Virus record (IMG/VR): IMGVR_UViG_3300042691_050360
Span: 1 to 64,000 of that record
DNA: 64,000 nucleotides
Direction: 5' to 3' (one strand)
Source: a virus
This document shows, piece after piece, positions 3,231-5,507 of this stretch. Numbering within the stretch: position 1 is the first letter of the stretch; every line of letters begins with the position of its first letter. Made by a program: the position numbers and the translations under genes. A model generated the notes under the pieces. The model ran no database searches. It was not told where the DNA came from and saw only the letters and a list, made by a program, of their open reading frames with translations.

Positions 3231-5507
3231 TCACTGTTGTTTGAGCCATTCCAGGGCTTGTTCTTTCGTGCTGAATGTCCCCATTCTCTGTGCTCTCCAC
3301 GCTTCATCTAGCATGAGTTTCACAGATGGCCCGGTCAACCCAAGGACATTCATGATATCATTTCCATTAAGTAATCCAGCCACTTTCTTCATTCTTCGAT
3401 CAAGCCATGCAAGGGCAGATTCTCTTGATTGCATATCTGGATCGTGTCTCAAGATTAGGTTTCTGTGTTCTTTAAGGATTTCTCCAACAATCGGCCCACC
3501 TTTATTATCAAGATAGGGCATAATATCTCTGCCTTGTAGAAGATCGGGGTGCTTGCCCTCGTAGACATTGTGTTGTTTTGCCAGATCAGACATCATTCTG
3601 GCTTCTTGTGGCAGTTCTTTATTAAGTGGTGGTCTGCCTGAGTGATCCGCTTCTATTAGAAGCTCAAGCATTCTAATATTTGCTGGATGTATTTTCTCTG
3701 CAAGTGATTTAACAAAGGCTTCTTGTTTTGGTGTATTAGAATGATGAATATGGCTCAGATGGAATTGCACTAGCGGCACCACTTTATCAATGATGTGTTT
3801 TGGGGCTCCTATTGACTGTAGGAAGGCTTTAGCCTTCTTTCCGCCCTTGTCCTCATGCCCATGAGATGTAATCCTGTCTATGCCTTTTTTATTTATTACA
3901 TCGGTAGTTTCTGGTTTAGCAAAGTCGTGTGCCAGGGCGGAATAAATCAACACTTCACGGTCTTCAGGGCTAAGATTCTCTCTTGTGGCAATATTTGCCG
4001 CTTCGTTCATTACATAGGCTGTATGAGTGGCAACATCACCTAGCTCAACAAGGAGATATATGTGCTTATCAGCAATACCATTGTTATGAGTATCAACATC
4101 ACCTATACCACGAAGATAGAAGTAAAAGATTACGTTATTATCAACGATAGAGAATTTAGGGTCAATTACGCCGGGGGATATGCTAAGATTTCCGTACCCG
4201 GAAGAACCCCTGGGAGCATTTTCTTGCATAGATACATCATGGAGATTCATTTGGGAAGAATCTTGAGCACTAGCGAGCATGTTCATCACATAGACGGCGA
4301 CAGACTTAATAATTCCTTGGATAATTTGGTTGTTCTCGATGGCAGAGCCCATAATTCTGAGCACACTAGGCTTAGGAATCTTAAACATGATCCCAATAAT
4401 TTTGTCTGCTTGTTGTGCGGAGGTTCTAATTTGCCGCACAAAGCTTTTGGATGGTGTGATAAATGCTGGAGGAAAAACCAATGGAGAAAACATAAGGTCA
4501 CTAATCCCTGCACTCTTTGTGGACACCAAATTAATAAAAACAGCCCCAGGCTTGACAGGAAATTGTGTGTGAGCTGTAACATCTCTAGATTTACCGCTTG
4601 CAGGGTTTGCTCCAGAGTTAAGGAGAAGCTCCCTGGACAAAAGATCAATGGGCTTGGATATTGCCACGCCTGCAGTGAAAGAATCAGGAGGCACAATTCT
4701 AACTGACCAGCCTTCGGGATGCCACTCCGAATCCTGAGGAGTATTTTTCAGATCGTGTATTTCAGGGAAGTTTTCAGACCATCCTGTGGTGTAGAGAAAG
4801 TCTAGTGCCTTTCCTGGTTCAATTCCTTTTGTCACGAGTTTTTTAAATTCTTCATACACTCTTTCCTTTGGAAGGTGTTGATATTCTGTTCTTATAGATT
4901 GTGCTAGTTCTGCGGTTTCTGGAGCTAAACTTAAACCAAACCTAGAACCCAAAGATAAAAGTCTAAGCACTCTAAGTGGGTCTTCAGAGAAGGCACTAGA
5001 TGTATGCTTTAATGTTTTATTTTTAATATCTTCAACGCCGTTATAATTATCGATTAAATTATTTGTCAAAGGGTCATATAAAATAGAATTAATAGTTACG
5101 TCTCTTCTACTTGCAGCATCTTTTTCTGAAAGATTTGGATTTGATTTTACAGCAAAATCTTGGTGTTTTTGTCCAGATTTAGATTCAGTTCTGGGTAAAG
5201 AAAAATCATAATCTTCTCCGTCAGCATTTAATTTTATAACACCAAAAGATTTCCCCACCTCAGAAACATCTCCAAATTTTGATAAAATTTCAATAAGTTT
5301 TTCATAAGTCAATCTGAAAACCTCAACATCATAGTCTTTGGGCTTAAAATTTGTTTTATGAATTTGATTGAATAATGAATCTCTAACAATTCCGCCGACT
5401 AAATATCCAGTGCCATTTTGTTTTTGTATTTCTGAAAGTATTTTTTGTAAAACTTCTGGAATCGGTATGTTTAAGCTATTTGATTTCTGAGCAAAATTAT
5501 ACCACAT
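3231..5507 (-). CDS. cca: CCA-adding tRNA nucleotidyltransferase with HD domain, interrupted by a 224-codon in-frame insertion
   Basis: GGIVRD, DYDV, RRDVTINS and FSEDPLRVLR motifs; HD region WHPEG//DVATHT...AHDFAKP; foreign sequence between HPEG and DVATH. Confidence 0.9.
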   Translation of the reverse strand: MWYNFAQKSNSLNIPIPEVLQKILSEIQKQNGTGYLVGGIVRDSLFNQIHKTNFKPKDYDVEVFRLTYEKLIEILSKFGDVSEVGKSFGVIKLNADGEDYDFSLPRTESKSGQKHQDFAVKSNPNLSEKDAASRRDVTINSILYDPLTNNLIDNYNGVEDIKNKTLKHTSSAFSEDPLRVLRLLSLGSRFGLSLAPETAELAQSIRTEYQHLPKERVYEEFKKLVTKGIEPGKALDFLYTTGWSENFPEIHDLKNTPQDSEWHPEGWSVRIVPPDSFTAGVAISKPIDLLSRELLLNSGANPASGKSRDVTAHTQFPVKPGAVFINLVSTKSAGISDLMFSPLVFPPAFITPSKSFVRQIRTSAQQADKIIGIMFKIPKPSVLRIMGSAIENNQIIQGIIKSVAVYVMNMLASAQDSSQMNLHDVSMQENAPRGSSGYGNLSISPGVIDPKFSIVDNNVIFYFYLRGIGDVDTHNNGIADKHIYLLVELGDVATHTAYVMNEAANIATRENLSPEDREVLIYSALAHDFAKPETTDVINKKGIDRITSHGHEDKGGKKAKAFLQSIGAPKHIIDKVVPLVQFHLSHIHHSNTPKQEAFVKSLAEKIHPANIRMLELLIEADHSGRPPLNKELPQEARMMSDLAKQHNVYEGKHPDLLQGRDIMPYLDNKGGPIVGEILKEHRNLILRHDPDMQSRESALAWLDRRMKKVAGLLNGNDIMNVLGLTGPSVKLMLDEAWRAQRMGTFSTKEQALEWLKQQ
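4038..4709 (+). mobile_element. 672-nt insertion in cca carrying an antisense HNH endonuclease gene
   Basis: Removing it restores the conserved WHPEGDVxTHT; almost entirely occupied by the + strand HNH ORF. Confidence 0.85.
4062..4706 (+). CDS. HNH homing endonuclease with C-terminal CxxC repeats
   Basis: LHRYIMEIHLGR..EHVHHIDGDRLNNSLDNL..H HNH motif; six CxxC pairs; AAGGAG at 4050-4055 (GTG 4062, alternative ATG 4086). Confidence 0.9.
   Translation: MLISNTIVMSINITYTTKIEVKDYVIINDREFRVNYAGGYAKISVPGRTPGSIFLHRYIMEIHLGRILSTSEHVHHIDGDRLNNSLDNLVVLDGRAHNSEHTRLRNLKHDPNNFVCLLCGGSNLPHKAFGWCDKCWRKNQWRKHKVTNPCTLCGHQINKNSPRLDRKLCVSCNISRFTACRVCSRVKEKLPGQKINGLGYCHACSERIRRHNSN

What the first reader, a model, noticed from the sequence alone, without database searches (positions are those of the whole stretch)
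4038..4709. Antisense HNH element inserted in frame in the CCA enzyme, with both strands kept open: neither intein nor intron
Seen: the conserved HD-domain motif WHPEG-DVxTHT of the minus-strand cca gene is split by exactly 672 nt (224 codons). On the opposite strand, 645 of those nt encode an intact HNH endonuclease, codon-aligned with the host frame. The host frame has no stop across the insert, so the HNH gene avoids TTA, CTA and TCA in all of its ~18 Leu and ~15 Ser codons, although these codons are common elsewhere in this AT-rich genome. The insert peptide starts W, has no terminal His-Asn and no +1 Cys/Ser/Thr, and leaves no room for a group I/II ribozyme core. Known: homing endonucleases at conserved sites normally spare the host by RNA splicing, protein splicing, or by splitting the gene into two reassembling parts. 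Inference: this is another strategy. The element hides antisense and is recoded for read-through, so the host protein keeps its C-terminal domains, or the insert is skipped by an unrecognised RNA-level or ribosome-bypass mechanism.
Basis: partly seen in the sequence, partly recalled or inferred. Interest (0 to 1): 0.92.

Follow-up and report, generated by a model that had tools for sequence, protein, structure and literature searches.

The report
Backwards nuclease gene, translated through
A selfish DNA-cutting gene sits backwards inside a phage's tRNA-repair (CCA-adding) gene without breaking it: the host appears to translate the mirror-image sequence as an extra protein segment, and some relatives have kept that segment after the nuclease gene itself died, which may be a new protein domain being born.

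Summary
Observation confirmed. A 224-codon insert in the cca gene of a 166.5-kb phage carries an intact antisense, codon-aligned HNH gene, and both frames are open. An empty allele 98% identical in protein exists. Over 50 occupied alleles occur in phages and in the single-copy chromosomal cca of some Acidobacteria; none read has a host-frame stop. In 18 alleles the HNH uses 0 TTA/CTA/TCA codons against 127 expected, and also avoids codons that would give the host Cys, Tyr or Trp. Patchy presence and conflicting trees fit homing. There is no intron, intein or bypass signature. Best reading (0.82): plain read-through, with the mirror peptide looped out just before the HD domain. Two alleles with a dead HNH keep a shortened mirror peptide with sense-coding signatures and a confident predicted fold (pLDDT 80). 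The idea is not new: ShiLan (PMC11855218) is a same-strand read-through HNH insertion, and antisense nucleases are known in inteins. This scan found the same element before on other DNA (e1-3911175, e1-5595182). No expression data were available.

The parts
4710..5507 (-). cca 5' part, residues 1-266: class II nucleotidyltransferase head and RNA-binding region, ending in WHPEG
   Evidence: Pfam PF01743 E 6e-18, PF12627; solved CCA-adding enzymes as best PDB matches; AF2 pLDDT mostly above 90
4038..4709 (-). in-frame insert, 224 codons, residues 267-490: the mirror peptide of the HNH gene plus short ends
   Evidence: absent from empty alleles; stop-free here and in all occupied alleles read
4086..4706 (+). 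HNH endonuclease gene (206 aa from the conserved ATG; 214 aa from GTG 4062): HNH_3 core and Cys-rich C-terminal DNA-binding region
   Evidence: Pfam PF13392, PHROG HNH families to E 6e-16; intact in nearly all occupied alleles
4050..4055 (+). Shine-Dalgarno-like AAGGAG, 6 nt before the in-frame GTG at 4062
   Evidence: sequence; several relatives have an SD 7-11 nt before the ATG; function inferred
4692..4709 (-). first strand of the insert (residues 267-272, starts with the near-invariant W); it lies over the HNH stop codon at 4704-4706
   Evidence: W first in 54 of 59 occupied alleles; predicted strand 268-272
4404..4613 (-). predicted disordered part of the mirror peptide (residues 299-368); the part shortened in the dead-HNH alleles
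   Evidence: pLDDT below 50, mostly under 30; deletions in L047 and L048
4104..4400 (-). predicted folded core of the mirror peptide (residues 370-468: strand, two helices, strand hairpin), mirror of the HNH catalytic core and N-terminus
   Evidence: pLDDT about 55-73 for the ordered elements; same elements at mean pLDDT 80 in L047; kept in dead alleles
4038..4064 (-). last strand of the insert (hydrophobic-hydrophobic-V-x-hydrophobic-G), outside the conserved HNH reading frame
   Evidence: conserved as amino-acid pattern with free third codon positions; predicted strand 482-488
3231..4037 (-). cca 3' part, residues 491-758: HD phosphohydrolase domain (H495, H527, D528, D621) and C-terminal helical region
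   Evidence: Pfam PF01966; ligands invariant in 73 aligned sequences; HDxxK kept in 58 of 59 occupied alleles

Best explanation
A homing endonuclease gene that lives in cca without any splicing. Shown: it is inserted antisense and codon-aligned at one conserved site, and both frames are under selection. Inferred: the HNH is transcribed from the opposite strand and nicks or cuts empty cca alleles near the junction, so repair copies the cassette across (homing in co-infection or phage-to-chromosome recombination). The host ribosome reads straight through and makes a 758-aa enzyme in which the mirror peptide leaves and re-enters the chain at the loop just before the first HD helix, so the HD domain and C-terminus still fold. 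The HNH pays by giving up TTA, CTA and TCA and by avoiding synonymous codons that would put Cys, Tyr or Trp into the host protein. Part of the mirror peptide is predicted to fold, and when the HNH decays the host can keep that part as a sense-coded segment.
For: No host-frame stop in any insert read: 18 distinct phage/metagenome alleles and 10 Acidobacteria alleles, while the two other host-strand frames hold 5-38 stops. 0 forbidden codons against 127 expected from each allele's own cca flanks; free-standing HNH controls of similar GC use them in 235 of 665 Leu/Ser codons. A-ending codons appear in 10 of 57 columns where the host residue would be Cys, Tyr or Trp and in 33 of 43 where it would be Ser (Fisher 3e-9, columns as units). 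Dead-HNH alleles L047 and L048 (13 and 9 antisense stops) are homologous to the mirror peptide (HMM P 4e-12 and 2e-8, hhalign 97%), have 0 host stops against about 12.5 expected, a sense-type GC1>GC3 profile and a kept hydrophobic pattern. AF2: host domains fold confidently around the insert. HD ligands are kept. Homing: occupied state needs 16 changes on the flank tree, 13 forced by well supported branches, with near-identical empty sisters; HNH and flank trees conflict, e.g. L061/L067 74% versus 38% identity. In four Acidobacteria genomes the occupied gene is the only PF01743 gene; in G001 13 of 59 tRNA genes lack an encoded CCA and no archaeal-type enzyme was found.
Against: No transcript, protein or activity data. 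An open frame with amino-acid selection shows translation but cannot by itself exclude later excision at protein level. About 70 residues of the live insert are predicted disordered and the rest only at pLDDT 55-73. The phage's own tRNA genes mostly encode CCA (13 of 14), so cca may be dispensable in this phage and could tolerate partial loss of activity. Alleles are related, so summed codon counts are not independent events. Cleavage by the HNH is inferred from its motif and distribution only.
Confidence: 0.82

Rival explanations
1. The insert is removed from the RNA by an unrecognised intron-like mechanism; the open frame is a back-up.
For: In the window a 19-nt inverted repeat (79%) pairs the start of the 3' flank with the insert's 5' part (4019-4037 with 4657-4675), and the insert can be read as GC...AG in one register.
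Against: That pairing is not conserved: over 20 alleles mean z is +0.4 and own partners pair no better than foreign ones; junction bases vary at third positions. No Rfam intron match, no unusual folding (z +0.5). Splicing would not explain selection on host amino acids or stop-free dead alleles.
Confidence: 0.05
2. The insert is translated and then cut out or cleaved at protein level by a non-canonical, intein-like reaction.
For: It would also need an open frame; both ends are conserved (first W, last G) and the predicted fold brings the ends together.
Against: No Cys/Ser at position 1, no terminal Asn/Gln, and the next residue is D in 47 of 59 and C/S/T in only 4. No intein profile match, whereas true inteins elsewhere in related cca genes were detected. 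The predicted fold is alpha/beta, not the all-beta Hint fold.
Confidence: 0.05
3. Ribosomes hop over the insert (T4 gene 60-like bypass).
For: Both ends carry a Gly codon, which could serve as take-off and landing sites.
Against: The two Gly codons match in only 8 of 20 alleles and not in the window (GGC versus GGT); there is no stop after the take-off site and no conserved structure. Bypass does not predict amino-acid selection inside the insert.
Confidence: 0.03
4. Read-through happens, but the insert cripples the HD domain; the element is merely tolerated in a dispensable gene and the mirror peptide is inert filler.
For: The site is next to the first metal-binding His; most tRNA genes of this phage encode CCA; much of the insert is predicted disordered.
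Against: HD ligands persist even in very divergent occupied alleles; occupied single-copy genes in bacteria with CCA-less tRNA genes; purging of stops implies that the C-terminal part is needed.
Confidence: 0.05

Closest known systems
ShiLan domain / hidden HNH insertions in actinophage DNA methylases (Arsenault, Gosselin, Gogarten 2025, PMC11855218; first report PMC9957025)
   Same: About 200-codon insertion at a conserved site, no stop in the host frame, HNH with zinc-finger regions in another frame, no intron or intein signature, patchy distribution read as homing, proposed to loop out of the host protein; splicing untested experimentally.
   Different: ShiLan's HNH is on the same strand in frame 3; here it is antisense and codon-aligned, so it needs its own transcript and loses three specific codons. 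Host is cca of large phages and Acidobacteria chromosomes, not a dispensable methylase. The paper reports a poorly predicted in-frame product and no dead-nuclease descendants; here a core is predicted to fold and persists after HNH loss.
Inteins with antisense homing endonucleases (LAGLIDADG, VSR-like; bioRxiv 10.1101/2025.01.02.630785)
   Same: Nuclease gene on the opposite strand of an open host frame; both strands coding; mobile.
   Different: There the mirror peptide is removed with the intein; here there is no splicing domain and the peptide would stay in the mature enzyme.
Intron-less homing endonucleases that split or sit inside genes: mobE in nrdA of phage Aeh1, mobA with the T4 gene 60 bypass (own knowledge; review PMC2988022 was listed but not read)
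   Same: HNH homing endonuclease at a conserved site of a functional gene without self-splicing.
   Different: Those split the host into two proteins or rely on ribosome hopping; here the host frame stays continuous.
Overprinted (overlapping) genes of viruses and bacteria (e.g. review PMC8227390, abstract only)
   Same: A new reading frame arises on top of an older gene and comes under selection.
   Different: The new frame is not a separate gene but a segment inside another enzyme, and it can outlive the ancestral frame.

Membership tests
ShiLan-type hidden HNH insertion | In-frame insertion with no stop in the host frame at a conserved site | tested here: met
ShiLan-type hidden HNH insertion | HNH endonuclease encoded in an alternative frame of the insert | tested here: met
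   PF13392 and PHROG HNH on the opposite strand
ShiLan-type hidden HNH insertion | [quoted passage not shown] | tested here: not met
   antisense and codon-aligned, host is cca; so it works like ShiLan but is not the same element
ShiLan-type hidden HNH insertion | Disjunct distribution consistent with homing | tested here: met
ShiLan-type hidden HNH insertion | Sequence homology to the ShiLan HNH | not tested
   no ShiLan sequence was fetched
Intein | C/S/A at position 1, terminal N/Q, C/S/T as first residue after the insert | tested here: not met
   starts W, ends G, next residue D in 47 of 59
Intein | Hint splicing domain by profile | tested here: not met
   no Pfam or PHROG match of the host-frame insert; the same scan detects inteins in P0117
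Intein | Hint fold by structure search | tested here: inconclusive
   predicted fold is alpha/beta; no clear match to any fold, which does not exclude a family
Group I / group II intron | Ribozyme core detectable by covariance model; conserved splice-site nucleotides and end pairings | tested here: not met
   no Rfam intron hit at E up to 10; no conserved pairing or junction bases beyond amino-acid needs; under 60 nt lie outside the HNH gene
Group I / group II intron | Spliced RNA product | not testable with these tools
   no RNA holder listed
Programmed translational bypass (T4 gene 60) | Matched take-off and landing codons, stop after take-off | tested here: not met
   8 of 20 match, none required; no stop
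HNH homing endonuclease | Intact HNH catalytic motif and DNA-binding extension, conserved under selection | tested here: met
   motif intact in live alleles; HNH frame more conserved than mirror frame, 63% versus 43% in the core
HNH homing endonuclease | Cleaves the empty allele near the insertion site | not testable with these tools
   needs an in vitro assay
Class II CCA-adding enzyme with HD domain | Pol-beta head, RNA-binding region, HD metal ligands | tested here: met
   CCA versus CC or A specificity not tested

The most novel reading that the evidence does not exclude
The mirror peptide of the HNH gene has become a real folded protein domain. It is shaped by selection while the nuclease is alive, kept and trimmed after the nuclease dies (L047, L048), and the unrelated-looking 110-162 aa domains fixed at the same site in other cca clades (P0065-P0089 group, P0068/P0071) are its later descendants. 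That would be a traceable series of de novo domain birth from the antisense strand of a selfish gene. The first two steps are well supported; descent of the last group is only suggestive.
Probability: 0.45. Interest if true: 0.88.

Novelty: new variant of a known kind. Interest (0 to 1): 0.72.

Why it matters
It strengthens the case that homing endonucleases can persist inside working genes with no splicing at all, which ShiLan suggested but could not separate from a dispensable host. Here the element also sits in a single-copy bacterial housekeeping gene, and its cost is written in a simple codon signature that can be scanned for. Gene callers annotate only the long host ORF, so these nucleases are invisible in annotations. 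The family holds live, decaying and dead alleles at one site, with near-identical empty alleles as controls, which makes two open questions directly testable: how long antisense overlaps arise and are kept, and whether a new folded domain can be born from the antisense frame of an existing gene.

Tried and rejected
Rfam: only chance-level matches. The 19-nt inverted repeat and the 21-nt direct repeat of the window are not general across alleles; rejected as mechanism. The near-identity of the window with L076 from about 210 nt upstream of the junction first looked like a homing tract, but it runs on for kilobases downstream and the break is better explained by the neighbouring DUF723 endonuclease cassette; not used as homing evidence. 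Descent of the 110-162 aa inserts from the mirror peptide: hhalign and HMM tests not significant; anchored global alignments gave some high scores (P0076 with L047 z 3.7, P0071 with the window z 3.2) but not consistently; left open. Searches for more intermediates found none. Fold searches with the L047 model found no clear match (best Z 3.8, TM 0.40, no Foldseek hit), which does not show the fold is new; Atlas feature searches gave no usable hit. No sigma-70 promoter was found directly upstream of the HNH gene; the phage has its own sigma-like genes, so the promoter is unidentified. A scan of viral contigs with the cca 5' part found nothing. No complex prediction was run.

Full report
1. Observation. 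The window is the first 64 kb of a 166.5-kb single-contig phage genome. cca is one open frame, 3231-5507 minus, with nucleotidyltransferase, RNA-binding and HD domains. Exactly 224 codons (4038-4709) lie between WHPEG and DVATHT, and the plus strand carries an HNH_3 gene with Cys clusters, codon-aligned with cca. In this phase TTA, CTA and TCA of the HNH would be stops in cca. The HNH uses none among 18 Leu and 15 Ser codons (P about 7e-6 from window usage).

2. Empty and occupied alleles. A protein search gave empty alleles of 534-538 aa, one 98% identical, and many occupied alleles of about 690-800 aa with the insert at the same site. A profile of the insert found about 40 CCA proteins at the 50% cluster level. 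DNA was read for 18 distinct phage or metagenome alleles and 10 Acidobacteria alleles. None has a host-frame stop; the HNH is intact in nearly all, with internal stops in L051 and L055 and a shortened C-terminus in L077. The 18 alleles use 0 forbidden codons against 127 expected from their own cca flanks, the other two host-strand frames hold 5-38 stops each, and free-standing HNH genes of similar GC use these codons freely, with one exception, L003. The alleles are related, so 127 is not a count of independent events, but their HNH proteins are often only 55-75% identical.

3. Selection goes beyond stops. HNH codons GCA and ACA (host Cys) have shares of 0.04, ATA and GTA (host Tyr) 0.08-0.09, CCA (host Trp) 0.12, while GGA, CGA and AGA (host Ser) are not depleted. 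By alignment column the A-ending variant is seen in 10 of 57 columns where it would give Cys, Tyr or Trp and in 33 of 43 where it would give Ser. So the host frame is read as protein. These codons are also one step from stops, which may contribute; either way translation of the host frame is implied. The ends are conserved as amino acids: W first in 54 of 59, and a short hydrophobic strand ending in G last, with third positions free.

4. No sign of removal. No Rfam intron, no unusual RNA folding, no conserved pairing between the ends and no conserved junction bases beyond codons. Intein end residues are missing and the residue after the insert is mostly D. The flanking Gly codons match in 8 of 20 alleles, against bypass. 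No RNA run was listed, so splicing was not tested directly.

5. Structure. AlphaFold2 on the read-through protein models the CCA and HD domains mostly above pLDDT 90 with the insert in place. The insert has ordered elements at pLDDT 55-73 (first strand, two short helices, strand-helix-helix, strand hairpin, last strand) and a disordered stretch at 299-368. HD ligands are invariant in the alignment and HDxxK is kept in 58 of 59 occupied alleles. HD-domain phosphatase activity in such enzymes is documented for M. tuberculosis and E. coli (PMC10673834).

6. Dead nuclease, living mirror. L047 (147 aa) and L048 (171 aa) have inserts whose antisense frame has 13 and 9 stops. They are homologous to the mirror peptide (P 4e-12 and 2e-8; no shuffle of 300 comes near; hhalign 97%). 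Their host frame has 0 stops where about 12.5 are expected, GC falls from first to third codon position as in their own flanks (0.44/0.29/0.16 and 0.41/0.37/0.27), and columns that are hydrophobic in live alleles stay hydrophobic (39 of 49 and 37 of 48). Their deletions fall in the predicted disordered stretch, and they lie apart on the flank tree. The L047 insert is predicted as a compact alpha/beta domain, pLDDT 79.7, pTM 0.76, with no clear structural match. Caveats: two alleles only; the alignment was dominated by live alleles whose columns co-vary through the HNH; tolerance and function cannot be told apart here. Two further insert types at the same site (110 aa and 140-162 aa, antisense full of stops, fixed in their clades) share the W start, the closing strand and a similar pattern, but homology was not statistically established.

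7. Mobility. On a tree of the cca flanks the occupied state needs 16 changes, 13 forced by well supported branches, and occupied alleles have empty sisters that are identical or nearly so in the region used (P0003/P0007, P0001/P0005, P0006/P0032, P0052/P0117). The divergent occupied alleles were fetched through the insert, so their empty relatives are under-sampled. HNH and flank trees conflict with strong support: L061 groups with L063 and L067 by HNH (73-74% identity) but not by flanks (38-39%). Patchiness alone could also reflect loss by recombination with empty alleles; the tree conflict points to transfer.

8. Beyond phages. Ten Acidobacteriota genomes (Pyrinomonadaceae, Blastocatellia) carry the element in cca, next to housekeeping genes in L089. 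In four tested it is the only PF01743 gene. In a sample of 151 genomes of the family, 144 have a match and 5 published ones have an ORF of occupied length, two judged by length only. In G001 13 of 59 tRNA genes lack an encoded CCA, six anticodons have only CCA-less genes, and no archaeal-type enzyme was found. This supports a working enzyme, though wobble could make those tRNAs dispensable. Other HNH genes lie antisense and in frame inside giant phage proteins (L001 with LPD38, L007/L008, two in L078); these hosts are GC-richer, where open mirror frames are easier to get.

9. Mechanism. Shown: site, phase, selection on both frames, patchy and incongruent spread, retention after HNH loss. Inferred: antisense transcription of the HNH, cleavage of empty alleles, full-length active product, looped-out geometry. 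I put plain read-through at 0.82, RNA-level removal 0.05, protein-level excision 0.05, bypass 0.03, crippled but tolerated host 0.05.

10. Comparison and novelty. It works like the ShiLan hidden-HNH insertion (PMC11855218) but fails that element's same-strand arrangement and host. Antisense nucleases are known in inteins (bioRxiv 10.1101/2025.01.02.630785), where the mirror peptide is spliced away. My paper searches found no description of an antisense, unspliced HNH in cca or of a mirror peptide that outlives its nuclease; the library is incomplete. The ShiLan lead came from earlier notes of this scan, which also recorded this same element in other genomes; I read the paper myself. Verdict: real, a new variant of a known kind, interest 0.72; the domain-birth reading would deserve 0.88 at probability 0.45.

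Noticed in passing
window:5584-6678 (+): Free-standing DUF723-type endonuclease gene next to the cca start. 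It is present in L041 and absent in L076; the 5' part of the window's cca resembles L041 and the rest L076, so the gene is a mosaic, probably through transfer of this second element.
   Followed up: partly
P0086, P0117: Related cca genes carry LAGLIDADG inteins in the nucleotidyltransferase head; P0086 has both an intein and a 162-aa insert at the WHPEG site. cca is a hot spot for selfish elements.
   Followed up: partly
L078 (host residues 292-458 and 1265-1467), L001:2857-3468, L008:2278-3285: Other HNH genes lie antisense and in frame inside giant phage proteins of 1345-2450 aa; L078 has two.
   Followed up: partly
L003:2728-3447: A free-standing HNH gene between a lysin-like and a holin-like gene has a stop-free mirror ORF that overlaps both neighbours, at 36% GC; it may keep ribosomes running across the insert.
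   Followed up: partly
window:4022-4042 and 4085-4105: 21-nt direct repeat (90%): the mirror of the HNH start resembles the host motif after the insert. Strong in the window's clade only; relic duplication or coincidence.
   Followed up: partly
window:4050-4089 (+): SD-like AAGGAG followed by a 9-codon ORF whose stop overlaps the HNH ATG; a similar short ORF occurs in L042 but not in L050 or L052.
   Followed up: partly
P0006, P0027, P0032-P0039: cca proteins with a 320-350 aa N-terminal extension that holds an HExxH motif and has no convincing Pfam match.
   Followed up: no
P0151, P0152, P0155, P0156 and many 100-250 aa hits: Called proteins that begin inside the mirror peptide, and many short database proteins that are only mirrors of HNH genes; likely gene-calling artefacts or contig fragments.
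   Followed up: no
window:462-533: One tRNA-Met gene without an encoded CCA end; the other 13 tRNA genes of the genome encode CCA.
   Followed up: partly
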